Shown here: one piece after another, positions 12,916 through 55,201 of the stretch
Position numbering within the stretch: position 1 is the first letter of the stretch
Layout of the letters: every line of letters begins with the position of its first letter
Origin: Elainellaceae cyanobacterium
Lineage (GTDB): Bacteria > Cyanobacteriota > Cyanobacteriia > CAZCXK01
Direction: 5' to 3'
Length of the DNA stretch: 64,000 nt
Assembly: GCA_051117335.1 (NCBI GenBank)
Contig: JBNPEB010000009.1
Location: 138,058-202,057, forward strand
Translations under genes and position numbers: made by a program
The notes under the pieces: generated by a model
The model's input: the letters and a program-made list of their open reading frames with translations, nothing else
The model's database searches: none
What the model was told of the DNA's origin: nothing

Positions 12916-13158
12916 TCAATTACTATTTTGAATTAAGTCTGCAGCTCTTTTCCTTAGAAAACCGAAGTCTCGATCTACATCCAAGCTAGACAGTTTTCCA
13001 CCATAGGATAGGAATTTTAGCGCTCCGCCCACTTTACGAATATTTTCTAGCGCTTTGTCTTCGGTTTCACCTGCTGATATGCAACCTGGTAATTCAGGAC
13101 ACCAGACTGCCCAATCTCCAGTTTCAGGATCAGGCTCAAGTGCAATTCGCCATTTCAT
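12916..13158 (-). CDS. HicB-like (UPF0150) antitoxin candidate
   Basis: ATG at 13158 with GGAGA 11 nt upstream; MKWRIALEPDPETGDWAVWCPELPGCISAGETEDKALENIRK resembles the HicB/UPF0150 fold signature (xLEPdxxGGyxVxfPdLPGCxtxGdTxEEAlxN). Confidence 0.5.
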   Translation of the reverse strand: MKWRIALEPDPETGDWAVWCPELPGCISAGETEDKALENIRKVGGALKFLSYGGKLSSLDVDRDFGFLRKRAADLIQNSN

Positions 13159-13172
13159 ACTGCCTTCATCTC

Positions 13173-13409
13173 CTACGAAAATAACTGGTGTAATAACTCG
13201 TCTCTGGTTAGACCAAAATGAGTAGCGATGTCTTGCAAAATCGCATTGAGAGCGATCGCTCTGCAAGATGTAAGCCTAACGGTGCCCATCACCCGCTGAG
13301 ATAGCCTTCGCATAATGAACAATAACCCTCGACAGTCGGTGTGCATGGGCGTTGTTAGTTTACATCTATTTCCTATGAGTAGCGATTGCTTAGTGCTAGC
13401 TAAAAACAT
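13173..13409 (-). CDS. Small ORF in the position normally occupied by hicA; divergent or degenerate HicA-like toxin candidate
   Basis: Stops 14 nt upstream of the HicB-like start; C-terminal RAIALNAILQDIATHFGLTRDEL resembles the HicA C-terminus (LPKGTLRSILKQAGL), but the canonical GSHH N-terminal motif is not evident. Confidence 0.25.
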   Translation of the reverse strand: MFLASTKQSLLIGNRCKLTTPMHTDCRGLLFIMRRLSQRVMGTVRLTSCRAIALNAILQDIATHFGLTRDELLHQLFS

Positions 13410-13567
13410 TGAATTTTGTGTTTTTTACCTTATCCTAACCTACTAGATTAGCGATCGCCCCGATAAACTTAGACACGCTGTGTCAGTTGCTCCTCCTAAC
13501 CAATGTGGGCAAACAAGATTCCGCGCTATGGTGCGATTAGCATCAAAACATTTCCTTAGGCGACTTA

Positions 13568-13843
13568 TCACATCCTTTCTCTTCTGATTAATTTTTGATC
13601 TTCTTCAAGAAGTTTAAGCTTTTTTTCAAGAGCTTTGAGATCCTGTTTAAGGCTGATGAGCCTATTTTTATCCATGGCATAGCTTAGAGAAAGGACTGAT
13701 AAATAGCTAAGTAATGAGCCTAAATAGCTGCTAAGTAACGGACCTTGGGACTCTGCATCTTGTGAGACGAAAAAACCGACATAAAGAGACATAAGTATGA
13801 GCTGAACAAATGAAATGCATAGCAATACATTCAGAGTTTTCAT
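13568..13843 (-). CDS. Small membrane protein (2 predicted TM) with C-terminal coiled-coil, hypothetical
   Basis: ATG at 13843 (MKTLNVLLCISFVQLILMSLYVGFFV ... LKALEKKLKLLEEDQKLIRRERM); sits in AT-rich DNA. Confidence 0.4.
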   Translation of the reverse strand: MKTLNVLLCISFVQLILMSLYVGFFVSQDAESQGPLLSSYLGSLLSYLSVLSLSYAMDKNRLISLKQDLKALEKKLKLLEEDQKLIRRERM

Positions 13844-14156
13844 CTTTTGTCTTCCCACGAATATTAAGGTTGTGTGCTGCCAAAGACCTTGATGCCTTCG
13901 TCTTCGTAGTCGTATGCCCAAAAAAGCACACCGTATCGTCGGCATACCGTGCAATTGCAGGCTGTTGCTCTGTCAGGTTGGCTTGTAAACTGCCATCAAA
14001 CAGAACCGCAACAACAAGAGCCCTGAATCATTTCGATAGCACCTCCTGATGCACCTTCTACCTAGCTAACGGTGAAGTTGTGCGGCGGCAGACAAGCTTG
14101 GCTTCTCACCGACAACATCTGTTCCGTCCGCACCAACGCAGTGTTAGCTGGCTACA

Positions 14157-14504
14157 TCAGATGTAAAGAATCTGGTTTTCCATTTCATTTGCTGTAGTGC
14201 TGTCCAAAATTGTAAGCAATCTCCGTACAATTTCTGTGTAGGGCTTTCTGACCGCAACGATGATTCCAGAATGGGATTTACCTGTATTAAAGTACTCCCG
14301 CGCAAGATCTTCAAAGTCAGTACGATTGTGCGTTAGGATAGCAGCACCTTGACCGGTTGCGTACTTTAGTTGCTCAGCATCTGTCTTGCCAAGTTGTCGA
14401 GCTTGTTGTGCTGTTGTGGCATTAAAACCACGAGATTGCAAAAGACTTGCAACAAGAACATCAACATCTTCATCTAGATAAACATGAATGAAAATATCAT
14501 TCAT
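14157..14504 (-). CDS. DUF5615-type PIN-like protein (putative toxin)
   Basis: MNDIFIHVYLDEDVDVLVASLLQSRGF ... ILTHNRTDFEDLA matches the DUF5615 pattern; its start overlaps the upstream DUF433 gene stop by 4 nt. Confidence 0.7.
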   Translation of the reverse strand: MNDIFIHVYLDEDVDVLVASLLQSRGFNATTAQQARQLGKTDAEQLKYATGQGAAILTHNRTDFEDLAREYFNTGKSHSGIIVAVRKPYTEIVRRLLTILDSTTANEMENQILYI

Positions 14505-14782
14505 AAATTTCGTACTCGTGGGTCAATTAGCTCATCAGGAATGCGATTGCGCTCAATGTATTCGTTGATTTCTGCTTGATGGTCTAGATAATAGCTGAGT
14601 GCATCAAAGACTTGGGATAAACCGAGGTGTGGTAATCGCTGAGGAATTTCCTCAGGTGAAACTCCAATACGCCACATCTCCACAATTGCTCTAACAGGTG
14701 TACGAGTACCTTTGATAATCGGTTCACTACTCAATATTTCGTCATTTTTGACAATGTGGCAATGCTCTGTTGCTTGTACCAT
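14501..14782 (-). CDS. DUF433 domain protein (putative antitoxin partner of DUF5615)
   Basis: EPIIKGTRTPVRAIVEMWRIGVSPEEIPQRLPHLGLSQVFDALSYY matches the DUF433 signature; operon-coupled to the downstream DUF5615 gene. Confidence 0.7.
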   Translation of the reverse strand: MVQATEHCHIVKNDEILSSEPIIKGTRTPVRAIVEMWRIGVSPEEIPQRLPHLGLSQVFDALSYYLDHQAEINEYIERNRIPDELIDPRVRNL

Positions 14783-15859
14783 ACTGATTTCTCCAAAGGA
14801 ATAAATATCAATAAACTCGATTCCATTTTAGCTTGATAGGAAATTCCTGAGCCTGCTCAATCGGTTAGTGCAAATTGGTCAGAAACCCACCAAAACCAAG
14901 GGTTAAACTAATATTCTCAGCGTTGAATACGCCTACGGACGGGAAGACATGCATCTAAATCAACTTCGTATGCAATGCACAATTCGCGAATATTTTTACG
15001 AAGACCAACAGCCCAATTGACCCGCTCTCCGATTGAAAGTGGTTCAATGTATCGCATCCTATCCGGCTATCACAGGCTCAAATGAAATCGGATGAAATCG
15101 TACTTTCGGTCAGGACTGGCAGCGGATCGCACTAAAGGATGATGCGAGTTATCTCTCTAATCTAAGGTCTAGCGATAGATTTCAGTTCTCTTATAAGCAT
15201 GTCTGTGACATGCAAGATCACAGATATTAAGAGTCCGGTGCATAAATATAGAGCACCAACAATTGTATCCTCTGGCAGGATAACAACCATTCCAGCAACT
15301 ATAAGTACTAGTGAAATAAACCAGAAAAAAAGAGTAGACATTGTGCAAAGCTCAACGAAGAAAATGGAAAAACCGCATTTGAGAGTAGCTTGATAGCAAC
15401 ACGATCTGCATATGGTGATTGCCGGCTAACTATTATTAGGCTGAAATTTTCCGCATAAGATCCTACAGCGGGTGGATAGGCAGAGTGATTCAGCATAACA
15501 CCCCAAATTTTATGCTTATGCAGATGATTTCTGCATAATATGCCGCTCAAGCAGATATAGCCAGAATCTTTCCGCATATTTTCAGATTCGTTACGGAGGT
15601 GAGCGAGTAGACTGTTAGTGCGATCGCCAAAGACCGGTCCTAGAGGACTAGAGGACCATCGCTCCCACAATTCCATTAAATCTTTCTAATGAGCCAAAGT
15701 ACGGTTGTATTTCTTTCACGAATACACTATTCTTTGCCATTAAGCGCTCAAACAGCGCAGCGCTCCCTAGAAGTGCCGCAAACACAACTAGGAAGCTAAC
15801 CCCTGACCCTGTCTCAGGCAGAATCAGTGGCTTTAGGCATTTTAGCTCCTATCGCCATC

Positions 15860-17160
15860 CTCCTTTGCCATGTCAAGTATCAGGGTGGCGTGTTTGTTTG
15901 AGCGCTCCTTATCAAAGCAAAAAGGAGCGTACTTCATGGTTTATCCACCCAACCCGCCCGGTGGGGCGGACAGTTCGTCCCGCCCGGATGACGATCGCCA
16001 TACCCTACGCATTATTGCAGTGGGGTCACTCACCGTTGTCAACCACTATGTGATGCAGATGTTTCAGCTTGACTATGCCGAACCCGGTGACTGGTCAAAG
16101 CCGTTGCCCACGGTGAATCCGAATGAAGTGATGCGGATTCTCACCAAACGCATTCGGGGGTTGAATACGTAAAGCCCAAAAACGCTAGGGTGCGTTGCTG
16201 TCAAGTGATGCTGTTGGCGAAACATTGCTTCATACGCTGAAAGTCTTGATACTACGCTGTCAGTCGTAAAAGCAACTTGTAGTTTTGTAACATAAACAAC
16301 CGTGGAATCAGCATTTGAGGTGTGAACAAATATTTCGCCAACAGCGTCCCTGCGTCAACCCAATCTACGGCGGAGTGTGCGATCGCACTCGACCAGGAGT
16401 TGGAACGCCGGGGCCACCGTTTTTCCCGCTATGTGGATGATGTGGTCATTTTGGTCAAATCAGCCCAAGCAGGTAGGCGAGTGTTCGCGTCAGCGTTGCG
16501 AAGCAATAGGCGAGTGTGACTCGCTATCTGACCCAGGTGTTACGACTAAAAGTGAACCCGAAGAAAAGCCAGGTTCGTCGGATTGAGCGATTGGAGTACT
16601 TGGGATTTACGTTCCAGGGAATCCGCATTATTTGGTCTGAGCGAGCCTTCCAGGACTTCAAGCACCGCTTGCGGGAGTTAACGTCGCGGCGATGGCGAGT
16701 GTCAATGGACTATCGGCTGAAGCGGATAAGCCTCTATTTGCGGGGTTGGATGGGCTACTTTGGGATCTCCCAACGGTATGGGCCAATTCCCGAACTAGAT
16801 GGGTGGCTGAGGCGTCGGATAATGCTTCGCAACGCTGACGCGAACGGATGTGCTATTGGAAACAGTTGCGTAGACCAAGGACGCGCATTGGCAACCTGCT
16901 CAAGTTGGGAACACCGAGGCAACATGCCTTCTCGACGGGCTTGAGCCGGAAGGGCTATTGGCGGTTGTCGCGGACGTTGGCGACGCAGACGGGAATGACC
17001 GATGAGTGGTTAGAACAAGAGGGATTGCTCTCGATTCGCGACCTCTGGATGAAAGCCCAGAGTTACGATGAGTAGTCCACTAATTTGTCTAGCAGTTAGG
17101 TTGAGAACCGCCCATTGCGGAGCCGCACGATGGGTGGTGTGGGAGGGGGGATTCGTGAGG
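15860..17160 (+). mobile_element. Decayed, 5'-truncated group II intron remnant
   Basis: RT/maturase fragments in three different frames (see pseudogene 16322-17075); GC-rich hairpins upstream (cgctcctt...aaggagcg at ~15908-15936; ggtggggcgg...cgtcccgccc at ~15950-15985) and downstream of the ORF; no intact RT domains 0-4. Confidence 0.6.
16322..17075 (+). pseudogene. Group II intron reverse transcriptase/maturase, frameshifted fragment (RT domains 5-7 plus X/thumb)
   Basis: Frame A: RYVDDVVILV (YxDD motif); frame B: LKVNPKKSQV..YLGFTF and LRGWMGYFGISQ (maturase X motif); frame C: CYWKQLRRPRTRIGNLLKLG ... SIRDLW; at least two frameshifts. Confidence 0.7.
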
Positions 17161-17387: not shown

Positions 17388-17843
17388 TTACTTCTGCTGC
17401 TGAAGCACACGCTTGACATTCCCCAGGCAGCAAGTTCCTTGAGGATTATTCACTTCGCAACCGCAACGCTTTGCGTGGACATGAGCTGTGATGCTTTCAA
17501 TGGCCGTGCTTTGCCCAGAAAAGGCCAATTCGTTCTGCAAACGCTGTCGAGTCCATCCGAAACAATAACAAACAGGAACATCATCTCCCTCATCTTTCTG
17601 GAAGACAGGCACCTTCACATCTTCAGTCGTAAACATCTCTTCTGGACTTGAAAAGTAGACTACTGAACACTCTGGGGCATCGCAAAAGCGGTAATTGCTG
17701 TTTGGGTTTAATCGCTCTAGGGCAGAGGGTTTGAGCAAACTTTTTAAGGTCATCAACTGGATAGGCTTGCCGCGAGTATGACTTTCTGGACAAGCACACA
17801 AATGCTCGTCAGAAGACGATGGTGTGAAACAACCTTGACTCAT
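17388..17843 (-). CDS. Cysteine-rich protein (about 11 Cys; CxC, CYC, CGC...NPxGxCC motifs), putative metal-binding, hypothetical
   Basis: ATG at 17843, 17 nt downstream of the merF-like stop; MSQGCFTPSSSDEHLCAC ... VPVCYCFGWTR ... AKRCGCEVNNPQGTCCLGNV. Confidence 0.5.
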   Translation of the reverse strand: MSQGCFTPSSSDEHLCACPESHTRGKPIQLMTLKSLLKPSALERLNPNSNYRFCDAPECSVVYFSSPEEMFTTEDVKVPVFQKDEGDDVPVCYCFGWTRQRLQNELAFSGQSTAIESITAHVHAKRCGCEVNNPQGTCCLGNVKRVLQQQK

Positions 17844-17860
17844 GGCAATACCCTCGAAGA

Positions 17861-18079
17861 TTATCGGTGCCGCTGACATTGCCGACGATATCGCATGTAA
17901 GACCACAGACTAAGCCCTATCAGCGCCCCTAATGCAGGTAATAAAACATAATCGAGATAGCCTATCCAGGCACTTAACCCTATGGTAGTCAAGATCACCA
18001 CTAACACGGGTGTGAAGCAGCATAGAGCCACGATGGTCGTGCCTGTGATGCTAGTCCATAGTGCGGCTTTAGGCCCCAT
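17861..18079 (-). CDS. MerF-like two-TM metal (mercuric ion) transport protein
   Basis: MGPKAALWTSITGTTIVALCCFTPVLVVILTTIGLSAWIGYLDYVLLPAL closely matches the MerF pattern (vicinal CC in TM1; LDYVLLPAL in TM2). Confidence 0.6.
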   Translation of the reverse strand: MGPKAALWTSITGTTIVALCCFTPVLVVILTTIGLSAWIGYLDYVLLPALGALIGLSLWSYMRYRRQCQRHR

Positions 18080-18488
18080 CGGAAATCTCCTTTACCACAA
18101 CACATTCATTATTAGGAGCGGCTTGGCTAAGGTTACTTTGGCATTGATCAATCAAGGGTAAAAGCTCATCCCGTAAGACTTGTAACTTTTGGATTTGGTC
18201 TTCTAGCTGTCGCACCTTGGCTGTTAAACGGCAATGCATCGCTTCACAGGTCAAGGTTTGCCCATCCTGAAGAACCAGAATTTCCTTGATTCCATCCAGA
18301 CTCAAGCCCAAGGCTTTGACGCGAGTGATAAACCGCAACCGAGCGATATCCTGCTCGCTAAATAGTCGGTAACCTGCTGTCGTTCGCCGAAGCGGCGGTA
18401 TCAGGCCAATGCGCTCATAGAAGTAAAGCGTTTGAGGATTGACGCCCAGTGTTTGAGAGGCTTCACCAATTTTTAGCAGCTTACTCAA
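18069..18488 (-). CDS. MerR-family metal-responsive transcriptional regulator
   Basis: N-terminal HTH LLKIGEASQTLGVNPQTLYFYERIGLIPP; coiled-coil dimerisation helix; Cys at positions 81, 86, 116 and 129, comparable to Tn501 MerR C79/C114/C123; TTG start at 18488 with GGAG RBS. Confidence 0.85.
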   Translation of the reverse strand: MSKLLKIGEASQTLGVNPQTLYFYERIGLIPPLRRTTAGYRLFSEQDIARLRFITRVKALGLSLDGIKEILVLQDGQTLTCEAMHCRLTAKVRQLEDQIQKLQVLRDELLPLIDQCQSNLSQAAPNNECVVVKEISDGA

Positions 18489-54990: not shown

Positions 54991-55201
54991 TCGAGAATTG
55001 GTATAAGTGCGACCGAGGACGGTCGCGTATTCCTTAACGGTAGGGTCGCCGAGACGTTATGCTCCGCATTGCCAGGGCAAACGCACTTGATTAAACAAAA
55101 TTCGAAACACTCTCCAATGAAGGTTATTTTTTAACAACCCCTTAGTGGCAATCAGGCGATTCAAATAATGTCAGAGCACGCACGCATCAGGATACGAGAC
55201 A

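What the first reader, a model, noticed from the sequence alone, without database searches (positions are those of the whole stretch)
12916..15860. AT-rich accessory island with two toxin-antitoxin-like pairs, an orphan small membrane/coiled-coil protein and unassigned sequence
The island contains (i) a HicB-like antitoxin whose upstream partner occupies the hicA position but lacks the canonical HicA N-terminal motif; (ii) a 92-aa two-TM protein with a C-terminal coiled-coil in notably AT-rich DNA; (iii) an overlapping DUF433-DUF5615 (PIN-like) pair; and (iv) ~1 kb (14783-15860) with no convincing gene, only short repeated motifs (TTCCGCATA twice, TGCATAA variants) and sub-threshold ORFs. It sits next to a decayed group II intron and the Mer-like operon. 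This is the kind of context where uncharacterised defence or addiction modules are found.
Basis: partly seen in the sequence, partly recalled or inferred. Interest (0 to 1): 0.55.

Follow-up and report, generated by a model that had tools for sequence, protein, structure and literature searches.

The report
Decayed integron cassette array in cyanobacterium
The AT-rich "island" is the remnant of an integron-type gene-cassette array with no integrase gene nearby, holding one intact toxin-antitoxin cassette, one orphan small-protein cassette and several gene fragments. This is a known kind of element, not a new addiction module.

Summary
The stretch is real and is the most AT-rich part of the window (GC 0.43 against 0.49).

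- **attC sites.** Two attC-type recombination hairpins lie on the minus strand, at 14064-14149 and 13274-13360. A covariance model built only from cyanobacterial copies of this hairpin also finds the true attC sites of class 1 integrons.
- **Cassette junctions.** Homology to other genomes breaks exactly at the canonical G|TT point.
- **Cassette contents.**
  - DUF433/DUF5615 is an intact toxin-antitoxin cassette under purifying selection.
  - The 91-aa two-TM/coiled-coil ORF is an orphan cassette with one homologue in 1.8 billion proteins.
  - "HicB" is a 142-bp 5' fragment. Its real partner, hicA, lies downstream in this subfamily and is gone.
  - The "hicA-position" ORF runs across attC2 and a cassette junction, so it is an artefact.
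- **The "empty" kilobase.** It holds a 59-aa membrane ORF, a gene remnant and four ~40-bp repeats, each with a 21-bp palindrome. The repeats end in an attI1-like core. The same architecture heads cassettes in two other genomes, so this may be an attI-type site.
- **Integrase.** None is present in the 64 kb.

Verdict: a CALIN, that is, a new member of a known kind.

The parts
13032..13173 (-). hicB 5' fragment: ribosome-binding site plus codons 1-42. The listed ORF 12916-13158 reads on into unrelated sequence.
   Evidence: 95.8% nt identity to a canonical hicBA locus (L082), and 94.4% to L102, over exactly these 142 bp and nowhere else. Family members are 66-67 aa, and identity to the query stops at residue ~42. 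Pfam HicB_lk_antitox scores 25.5 bits, below its cut-off of 27.
13173..13409 (-). 78-aa 'hicA-position' ORF: not a gene
   Evidence: No homologue and no Pfam, NCBIfam or PADLOC hit. It spans attC2 and the 13280|13279 cassette junction. hicA is downstream of hicB in this subfamily.
13274..13360 (-). attC2: R'' AACTAAC ... R' GTTAGGC, crossover between 13280 and 13279
   Evidence: CM R1 scores 34.7 bits, E 1.3e-7. The hairpin fold has z -2.7 to -2.9. Homology to TARA contig L086 runs through the site and ends at G|TT.
13280..14069 (-). Cassette 2 (790 nt). It carries the 91-aa two-TM plus coiled-coil ORF at 13571-13846 (stop codon 13568-13570).
   Evidence: 81-86% nt identity to L086, with both ends of the homology at G|TT. 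Only one homologue (P0122) turned up in 5.8 billion and 1.84 billion protein searches. There is no third-position excess: differences by codon position are 8/12/9, with 6 synonymous and 20 non-synonymous codons.
14064..14149 (-). attC1: R'' AGCTAAC ... R' GTTAGCT, crossover between 14070 and 14069
   Evidence: Inverted repeat I3. Fold z -2.8 to -3.0. CM R1 scores 100 bits, though this site was used to build the model. The homologous hairpins behind the same toxin-antitoxin pair in L001, L087, L088, L090 and L092 have covarying arms. Homology with L001 ends, and homology with L086 starts, at this same nucleotide.
14157..14504 (-). DUF5615 (PIN-like) putative toxin, 115 aa
   Evidence: Pfam PF18480, 52.9 bits. 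96.5% aa identity to L001, with 7 of 11 nt differences at third codon positions. 81-97% identical copies occur in six metagenome contigs.
14501..14782 (-). DUF433 putative antitoxin, 93 aa; overlaps the toxin start by 4 nt
   Evidence: Pfam PF04255, 60.6 bits. 100% aa identity to L001, with 4 nt differences that are all synonymous.
14825..14848 (-). Inferred promoter and operator of the toxin-antitoxin cassette: -10-like GCTAAAAT (14825-14832) and palindrome AGGAAATTCCT (14838-14848)
   Evidence: GCTAAAAT, GCTAAGAT or GCTAGGAT is kept about 40 nt upstream of the DUF433 start in relatives whose upstream sequence is otherwise unrelated. The consensus promoter scan did not flag it, so this is inference.
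14917..15030 (-). 3' remnant (last ~38 codons) of a 134-aa gene that is intact in L087 3186-3590. That protein has an R-x4-H motif and no Pfam or NCBIfam family.
   Evidence: Homology to L087 starts at 15028. ORF and translation comparison. No family found.
15162..15341 (-). 59-aa small ORF with two hydrophobic segments
   Evidence: An ORF of the same length, start and stop is present and was called as a gene in L001, at 57% aa identity. There is a weak sub-threshold NCBIfam GPGG small-membrane-protein hit. It shows no purifying-selection signature: 3 synonymous against 26 non-synonymous codons. The start codon lies 16 nt after a G|TTGAGC junction (15361|15360), upstream of which L001 and the window are unrelated.
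15430..15578 (-). Four ~40-nt tandem units, each with a 21-bp imperfect palindrome TAKGCNGA-N5-TCNGCATA. Read on the minus strand they end in CCTAATAATAG|TTAGCC (15430|15429). Putative attI-type site.
   Evidence: Repeat family D1, with spacings of 40, 40 and 41 nt. The same architecture is found in L086 715-850 and L012 2344-2493 and nowhere else in 1.39 Mb of fetched loci and window. In both of those loci the array abuts the first base of a cassette that is joined to an attC elsewhere. The core resembles attI1, GCCCTAAAACAAAG|TTAGAT.
15678..16172 (+). Flank shared with a related Elainellaceae MAG contig, including a conserved 78-aa ORF (15936-16172). It sets the right-hand limit of the array.
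   Evidence: 88-94% nt identity to L102 1-586. Homologues of the ORF occur on 12 cyanobacterial plasmids.
16322..17075 (+). Decayed group II intron ORF: RT domain 5-7 and the maturase domain, split over three frames. It lies opposite in orientation to the cassettes.
   Evidence: YVDD motif and frame breaks. Pfam GIIM, 49 bits. No ribozyme hit in Rfam.

Best explanation
Window ~13032-15578 is a short, decayed integron-type gene-cassette array with no integron integrase nearby. This fits the definition of a CALIN: a cluster of attC sites lacking an integron-integrase.

**Layout, read on the minus strand**
1. A putative attI-type head: four ~40-nt repeats ending in ...AATAG|TTAGCC.
2. A composite first cassette. 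It holds a 59-aa membrane ORF, a 3' remnant of a 134-aa gene, and a self-promoted DUF433/DUF5615 toxin-antitoxin pair. It closes with attC1.
3. A second cassette with an orphan 91-aa two-TM/coiled-coil ORF. It closes with attC2.
4. A truncated tail that contains only the first 42 codons of a hicB gene.

**How it works**
- Shown: the hairpins belong to the attC structural class, and cassettes are exchanged at G|TT.
- Inferred: the cassettes were inserted and shuffled by an IntI-type tyrosine recombinase. That enzyme folds the bottom strand of each attC and exchanges strands between G and TT. It is now encoded elsewhere in the genome or lost.
- Inferred from the family and from integron literature: the toxin-antitoxin cassette is the only part under clear purifying selection. 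It probably acts as an addiction module that opposes loss of the array.
- Inferred, with my own confidence about 0.45: the repeat block is the cassette-insertion (attI-like) site.
For: 1. **Two attC sites.** CM R1, built from 7 cyanobacterial hairpins, finds exactly two strong same-strand sites in the 64 kb, at 100 and 34.7 bits. Nothing else scores below E 0.1 except the reverse strand of attC1.
2. **Same class as true attC sites.** The same model ranks the true attC sites of class 1 integrons as its top hits in two resistance plasmids: blaVIM-2 at 36 bits (E 2e-8), aac(6')-Ib3 at 24 bits, and aac(6')-29a and -29b next.
3. **Covariation.** On 25 sites, 87% of cells are paired and 13 of 20 pairs show compensatory changes. 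The covariation score is 0.436, against 0.156 for shuffles (0 of 500 reach it) and at most 0.12 for slid controls.
4. **Junctions at G|TT.**
   - 14070|14069: the window against L001 and L086.
   - 13280|13279: the window against L086.
   - The Mer cassette TTATACTGCTGGGC... has three different upstream partners in L012, L015 and L017.
5. **Arrays in relatives.** Same-strand sites sit behind co-oriented ORFs: 4 in L088, 2 each in L087, L092 and L086, and 11 in a Gloeomargaritales chromosome.
6. **No integrase.** tblastn with IntI1 finds nothing in the window at E<=1.
7. **Selection on the toxin-antitoxin pair.** DUF433 has 4 synonymous and 0 non-synonymous changes. DUF5615 has 6 and 4.
8. **Literature.** Integrons and taxon-specific attC sites are already reported in Cyanobacteria (PMC4889954, PMC8352920). 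Promoter-bearing toxin-antitoxin cassettes are typical of chromosomal integrons (10.1101/2022.08.03.502626).
Against: - Only two attC sites are present, the minimum for a CALIN.
- Both R'' boxes, and the R' box of attC1, depart from RYYYAAC/GTTRRRY by one base.
- IntegronFinder's own attC model could not be run.
- No integrase was seen next to any of the related arrays fetched. IntI-dependence is therefore inferred from site structure alone.
- The first cassette has no internal attC although it contains three unrelated pieces.
- Its 5' end is ambiguous: 15430|15429 or 15361|15360.
- The covariation alignment was fitted to the model, which favours the structure.
Confidence: 0.8

Rival explanations
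1. One reading: an accessory island with two toxin-antitoxin pairs, one of them a HicB with a novel non-HicA toxin encoded upstream.
For: A HicB_lk_antitox match exists at E 1.6e-5. NCBI annotates the 80-aa ORF as a HicB family antitoxin. A 78-aa ORF ends 14 nt before its start.
Against: - Only 142 bp are hicB-like. The family is 66-67 aa and identity stops at codon 42.
- Gene order in the family is hicB then hicA.
- No HicA-like frame exists anywhere in the window.
- The upstream ORF has no relative or family and overlies attC2 and a junction between two independently mobile segments.
Confidence: 0.03
2. A generic horizontally acquired island. The hairpins would be terminators or REP-like palindromes of the toxin-antitoxin module, and the breakpoints ordinary illegitimate recombination.
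For: - The hairpin always follows the DUF5615 stop in close relatives, as a 3' terminator would.
- No integrase is nearby.
- Only two sites are in the window.
Against: - A model of these hairpins picks out genuine class 1 attC sites.
- The same hairpin class follows unrelated genes (the Mer operon, SMODS/SLATT, PIN toxin-antitoxin pairs, the TM/coiled-coil ORF) in same-strand arrays.
- Breakpoints fall on the same G|TT nucleotide in independent comparisons.
- No U-tract follows the stems.
Confidence: 0.07
3. This rival concerns the repeat block only. The four ~40-bp palindrome-bearing repeats would be an operator, iteron or centromere-like binding array for a dimeric DNA-binding protein, for example a plasmid-derived one, and not a recombination site.
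For: - 21-bp palindromes phased at about four helical turns are typical of protein-binding arrays.
- The neighbouring 78-aa ORF has homologues on small cyanobacterial plasmids next to par and rep genes.
- No intI adjoins any of the three arrays.
- In L086 the array follows another attC and a truncated methyltransferase start.
Against: - All three known copies end in YCTAATAAYNAR|TTA, exactly at the first base of a cassette that is joined to an attC in another genome.
- The core resembles attI1.
- The plasmids carrying the 78-aa homologue have no such repeats.
Confidence: 0.35

Closest known systems
CALIN / sedentary chromosomal integron cassette arrays (Cury et al. 2016, PMC4889954; cyanobacterial attC model in Ghaly et al. 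2021, PMC8352920)
   Same: - Same-strand attC hairpins behind co-oriented small ORFs.
- Cassette boundaries at G|TT.
- No nearby intI.
- Cassettes of unknown function plus a toxin-antitoxin cassette.
- AT-rich relative to the host DNA.
   Different: - Very short (two attC sites) and decayed.
- The first cassette is a fusion of three pieces.
- The array ends in a truncated hicB fragment that has no attC of its own.
Promoter-bearing toxin-antitoxin cassettes of the Vibrio cholerae chromosomal integron (10.1101/2022.08.03.502626)
   Same: A two-gene type II module with its own inferred promoter and its own attC, placed inside an array of otherwise promoterless cassettes.
   Different: The family here is DUF433/DUF5615 (PIN-like). 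It has not been tested, whereas the Vibrio systems have been characterised. No integrase is present, so 'abortive cassette excision' cannot operate from this locus alone.
attI1 of class 1 integrons
   Same: - The core ...CCTAAAACAAAG|TTAGAT (L098) compares with ...GCCTAATAATAG|TTAGCC here.
- Both have four protein-binding-like elements upstream of the crossover.
- Both are joined to the first cassette at G|TT.
   Different: - The repeats here are 21-bp palindromes at 40-bp phasing. attI1 has two short direct repeats plus an inverted pair, all within 65 bp.
- No intI is adjacent in any of the three copies.
HicAB type II toxin-antitoxin system (hicB-first cyanobacterial subfamily, e.g. L082, L084, L102)
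   Same: The first 42 codons and the ribosome-binding site are about 95% identical to an intact Elainellaceae hicB.
   Different: The last third of hicB and all of hicA are missing. The tail of the ORF is unrelated read-through.

Membership tests
Integron attC site | Inverted core sites R'' (RYYYAAC) and R' (GTTRRRY) with invariant AAC...GTT | tested here: met
   attC1 has AGCTAAC/GTTAGCT and attC2 has AACTAAC/GTTAGGC. AAC and GTT are present in both, and the R' of attC2 is canonical. The other three boxes differ from the consensus by one base each. The R-box helix is 97% paired over 25 sites.
Integron attC site | Single-strand fold: R stem, unpaired spacers, L stem with extrahelical bases, variable terminal loop | tested here: met
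   Folds with z -2.7 to -3.0 and bulged bases. The RNAalifold consensus has 20 pairs, 8 of them compensatory. On 25 sites, 9 of 12 L-stem pairs covary and the loop is variable.
Integron attC site | Crossover between G and TT of R' defines the cassette ends | tested here: met
   Breakpoints at 14070|14069 and 13280|13279, and the Mer cassette in three different contexts.
Integron attC site | Recognised by a curated attC covariance model (IntegronFinder attc_4) | not testable with these tools
   The model is not available here and Rfam has no attC family. The reciprocal test was met: the CM built from these sites finds class 1 attC sites as its top hits.
CALIN (cluster of attC sites lacking an integron-integrase) | At least 2 attC sites on one strand, less than 4 kb apart, with no intI nearby | tested here: met
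   Two minus-strand sites lie 790 nt apart. IntI1 gives no tblastn hit in the 64-kb window at E<=1. The definition is in PMC4889954.
Complete integron | intI gene adjacent to attI and the cassette array | tested here: not met
   No tyrosine-recombinase similarity in the window. The DNA beside the repeat block is a flank shared with L102, followed by a group II intron remnant.
attI site | Lies between intI and the first cassette, joined to the cassette at G|TT, with integrase-binding repeats | tested here: inconclusive
   A join at (G/A)|TT to a cassette is seen in 3 of 3 arrays, and the core is attI1-like. No intI is adjacent, and binding could not be tested.
HicAB toxin-antitoxin | Full-length HicB fold plus a HicA (PF07927) partner | tested here: not met
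   HicB_lk_antitox is below its cut-off and covers profile positions 2-39 of 123. Homology is 142 bp only. There is no HicA by Pfam or tblastn.
DUF433/DUF5615 (PIN-like) type II toxin-antitoxin | Both domains above the gathering score, an overlapping antitoxin-first bicistron, and conservation as a pair | tested here: met
   60.6 and 52.9 bits. ATGA overlap. The pair is kept together in 11 metagenome loci. Purifying selection is evident.
DUF433/DUF5615 (PIN-like) type II toxin-antitoxin | Toxicity of the PIN-like protein and neutralisation by the partner | not testable with these tools
   Needs expression assays.
Group II intron | Intact RT-maturase ORF and ribozyme domains | tested here: not met
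   Only RT5-7 and the GIIM domain survive, spread over three frames. No Rfam intron hit even at E<=1.

The most novel reading that the evidence does not exclude
The four-repeat block (15430-15578) and its two relatives in L086 and L012 represent an undescribed type of cassette-insertion site for cyanobacterial integrons. It has four phased 21-bp palindromes ending in a YCTAATAAYNAR|TT core, and it occurs without an adjacent integrase. On this reading it would be a portable 'orphan attI' that lets an integrase encoded elsewhere build cassette arrays at several places in a genome.
Probability: 0.35. Interest if true: 0.6.

Novelty: new member of a known kind. Interest (0 to 1): 0.4.

Why it matters
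- **Reclassification.** What looked like a set of odd toxin-antitoxin candidates is an integron cassette array. This removes a false lead (the 'non-canonical HicA') and explains the mosaic structure, the base composition and the small orphan ORFs.
- **What the array carries.** Integron arrays in cyanobacteria are little studied. Related arrays found here carry a Mer-like metal operon, a SMODS/SLATT module, an Argonaute-like gene and several toxin-antitoxin pairs. These arrays therefore look like a reservoir of defence and stress genes shared between freshwater, soil and marine lineages.
- **The repeat block.** If it is an attI-type site, it would give a direct handle for finding array heads in cyanobacteria and for testing integrase specificity.

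Tried and rejected
- **Synteny through the zf_CopZ gene** (genome scan). The best relative is only 67% identical, and no flank is shared, so island borders could not be set this way.
- **Homologue search for the 'hicA-position' ORF.** It found nothing. Six-frame and tblastn searches for a frameshifted hicA also found nothing.
- **Canonical RYYYAAC...GTTRRRY regex.** No hit in the island. It was too strict; the covariance model was needed.
- **A conserved 30-aa alternative frame at 14955-15047.** This idea came from substitution periodicity. It was set aside once L087 showed the other frame to be the ancestral gene. The periodicity remains unexplained.
- **An attC-like hairpin upstream of the 59-aa ORF.** The region does not fold.
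- **A link between the repeats and plasmid replication,** through the neighbouring 78-aa ORF. The plasmids carrying its homologue have no such repeats.
- **Plasmid search with DUF5615.** No match.
- **Rfam.** Nothing at the gathering threshold or at E<=1.
- **Consensus promoter and terminator scan.** No more hits than in shuffled sequence.
- **Exact-protein look-ups** for the source contig and for the 59-aa ORF. Neither is on record.

Full report
**What is at the coordinates**

The stretch 12916-15860 has GC 0.429 against 0.493 for the window. That puts it in the lowest 0.8% of same-size sliding windows. All plausible ORFs are on the minus strand.

Pfam confirms DUF433 (14501-14782, 60.6 bits) and DUF5615/PIN-like (14157-14504, 52.9 bits), which overlap by ATGA. 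HicB_lk_antitox matches the ORF 12916-13266 only weakly, at 25.5 bits against a cut-off of 27, and only over profile positions 2-39 of 123. The other ORFs tested have no convincing Pfam, NCBIfam or PADLOC family; the only matches are weak and far below the curated cut-offs.

The neighbours are as described. To the left are RTX-repeat proteins. To the right are a group II intron maturase remnant (GIIM) and a MerR-MerF-zf_CopZ operon. The source is an Elainellaceae cyanobacterium MAG, shown by 100% self hits P0001 and P0121.

**The HicB claim fails**

- The 428 relatives of the 80-aa product are almost all 66-67 aa. They match it at about 86% identity over its first ~42 residues only.
- At the DNA level, an intact hicBA locus from a related Elainellaceae (L082) matches the window at 95.8% over exactly 13173-13032. 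That is the ribosome-binding site plus 42 codons, and nothing on either side. L102 gives the same result.
- In this subfamily the order is hicB then hicA, with overlapping genes (L082, L083, L084 and L102). The toxin should therefore lie downstream.
- No HicA-like frame exists anywhere in the window.
- The upstream 78-aa ORF has no homologue and, as shown below, lies over a recombination site.

**Mosaic structure led to the real explanation**

- A Logan contig (L001) matches the window from about 15361 to 14064. The toxin-antitoxin genes are 99% identical, while upstream DNA is only 80-87% identical.
- A TARA contig (L086) matches 14069-13329.
- The two homologies meet at one nucleotide, 14070|14069. 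This is the 3' end of a 27-nt-arm imperfect inverted repeat that folds better than shuffles, with z about -3.
- Eleven metagenome relatives of the toxin-antitoxin pair were fetched. In most of the closest ones, such a hairpin sits directly behind the DUF5615 stop. It has conserved ...CTAAC and GTT... ends, covarying arms and a variable loop. Sequence similarity between loci ends right after the G of GTT.

**Test of the attC hypothesis**

I built a covariance model (R1) from seven of these hairpins.

- *In the window.* With filters off, it finds its own site (attC1, 100 bits) and one new site on the same strand at 13271-13363 (attC2, 34.7 bits, E 1.3e-7). Nothing else scores below E 0.1 apart from the reverse strand of attC1.
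- *In related loci.* It finds same-strand arrays behind co-oriented ORFs: four in L088, two each in L087, L092 and L086, one each in L012 and L017, and eleven in a Gloeomargaritales chromosome segment, L015.
- *In class 1 integrons.* As an outside control I fetched two class 1 integrons from resistance plasmids. R1's best hits there are the genuine attC sites, on the right strand and directly behind blaVIM-2 (36.4 bits, E 2e-8), aac(6')-Ib3 (24.2 bits), aac(6')-29a and aac(6')-29b.
- *Covariation.* On 25 aligned sites, 87% of cells pair and 13 of 20 pairs show compensatory change. The covariation score is 0.436, against 0.156 in shuffles (0 of 500 reach it) and at most 0.12 when partners are slid. 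The caveat is that this alignment was fitted to the model.
- *attC2.* It folds as an R stem, bubble, and L stem with bulges, with z -2.7.
- *Junctions.* Homology of the window with L086 runs through attC2 and stops at G|TT, 13280|13279. A Mer-operon cassette beginning TTATACTGCTGGGC... has three different upstream partners in L012, L015 and L017, always after G.

These are the defining properties of integron cassettes.

IntI1 gives no tblastn hit in the window at E<=1. The region therefore fits the published definition of a CALIN (PMC4889954). Integrons and a taxon-specific attC model for Cyanobacteria are already in the literature (PMC4889954, PMC8352920).

**Contents, read on the minus strand**

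*Cassette 2 (14069-13280)* carries the 91-aa ORF. It has two hydrophobic segments and a charged helical tail.
- Apart from its own entry in each library, it has one homologue, found in both the 5.8-billion-protein word search and the 1.84-billion-protein HMMER search.
- Its differences from that homologue are spread evenly over codon positions: 8/12/9, with 6 synonymous and 20 non-synonymous codons.
- Its coding status is therefore plausible but unproven.

*The first cassette* ends at 14070 and is a composite of three pieces:
- A 59-aa ORF with two hydrophobic segments (15162-15341). L001 keeps the same length, but there is no purifying-selection signature.
- The last ~38 codons of a 134-aa gene that is intact in L087.
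- The toxin-antitoxin pair. DUF433 shows 4 synonymous and 0 non-synonymous changes, and DUF5615 shows 6 and 4. These are the only genes here under evident constraint.

A -10-like GCTAAAAT, with a palindrome beside it, is kept upstream of the pair even in relatives whose upstream DNA is otherwise unrelated. This fits the promoter-bearing toxin-antitoxin cassettes of chromosomal integrons (10.1101/2022.08.03.502626). That the pair stabilises the array is inference.

*After attC2* come 106 nt of unknown origin, then the hicB fragment, then 454 nt of unmatched sequence up to the convergent RTX gene.

*The 78-aa 'hicA-position' ORF* (13173-13409) begins inside attC2 and crosses the 13280|13279 junction. 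Its two halves belong to separately mobile segments, so it is an artefact.

**The 'unassigned' kilobase**

Each holds a 21-bp imperfect palindrome, TAKGCNGA-N5-TCNGCATA. The 122-aa ORF over them has no family.

Scanning the 1.39 Mb of fetched loci and window found the same architecture only twice more: L012 2344-2484 (four units, exact 40-nt spacing) and L086 715-840 (41-nt period). The three arrays end alike:

| Array | End of array, and first bases after it |
|---|---|
| window | CCTAATAATAG\|TTAGCC |
| L086 | TCTAATAACAAA\|TTAGCT |
| L012 | TCTAATAACTAG\|TTATAC |

- In L086, the base after the bar is the first base of the same cassette that follows attC1 in the window.
- In L012, it is the first base of the Mer cassette that follows an attC in L015.
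- The core resembles attI1, GCCCTAAAACAAAG|TTAGAT, read from plasmid L098.

I therefore propose that the block is an attI-type insertion site. Three points count against this. No integrase adjoins any of the three copies. In L086 the block follows another attC and a truncated gene start. In the window a second sharp junction, G|TTGAGC at 15361|15360, lies 69 nt further in, and L001 is unrelated upstream of it. I put this sub-claim at about 0.45.

**Borders**

To the right, 15678-16172 is shared at 88-94% with a contig of a related Elainellaceae MAG (L102). There the conserved 78-aa ORF is followed by an intact hicBA. The array therefore ends between 15578 and 15678, and the hicB fragment is probably a relic of a neighbouring native locus displaced by rearrangement.

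The group II intron remnant lies opposite in orientation to the cassettes, where the attC of the window's Mer operon would be expected. No attC is detectable there. Group IIC introns are known to associate with integrons (PMC7923331 abstract). The link here is only suggestive.

**Verdict**

The region is a decayed integron cassette array (CALIN) in a cyanobacterium, a new member of a known kind. The only element that might be new is the repeat block as an integrase-less attI-type site.

Noticed in passing
window 17388-18488; L012 2493-4468; L015 8565-10517; L017 9174-10526: The MerR-MerF-zf_CopZ operon is itself an integron cassette in three other cyanobacteria. It has the same 5' end (TTATACTGCTGGGC) after G and an attC behind zf_CopZ. 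In the window no attC follows the operon, and the group II intron remnant sits where the attC would be.
   Followed up: partly
window 15936-16172 (+): A conserved 78-aa ORF of unknown function. It has homologues on 12 cyanobacterial plasmids, next to parG and replication genes on Trichormus plasmid D. In the related contig L102 it lies beside an intact hicBA.
   Followed up: partly
window 14883-15069: Substitutions between the window and L001 are strongly periodic: about 20 of 30 fall in one codon phase. That phase is not the third position of the ancestral gene frame. It fits a 30-aa ORF (14955-15047) followed in frame by TAG-ATG. Unexplained.
   Followed up: partly
window 15090-15160: About 70 nt just downstream of the 59-aa ORF are almost identical between the window and L001 (2 mismatches), although both flanks differ by 15-20%. 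The window also carries a 10-nt tandem duplication (GATTTCATCC/GATTTCATTT) at about 15091-15110.
   Followed up: no
window 55022-55114: A ~95-nt segment is 83-88% identical to the DNA downstream of the 55-aa HicB-like ORF that accompanies hicBA in L082 and L102. It may be a small repeated element or the remnant of another copy.
   Followed up: no
L088 2391-2746, 3663-4118, 5237-6078: In this related array, a copy of the 3' end of the flanking minus-strand membrane-transporter-like gene follows each of three attC sites. This suggests repeated insertion, or duplication, at one site at the array end.
   Followed up: no
L015 12290-15762; L088 775-2264; L087 2523-2876: Related cyanobacterial cassette arrays carry defence-type genes: an Argonaute-like gene split by an insertion-sequence transposase, a SMODS plus SLATT pair, and a Shedu SduA_C fragment.
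   Followed up: partly
window 16204-16351: A 32-nt inverted repeat, 81% complementary with 84 nt between the arms, lies between the 78-aa ORF and the first intron RT fragment. It may be leftover intron RNA structure.
   Followed up: no
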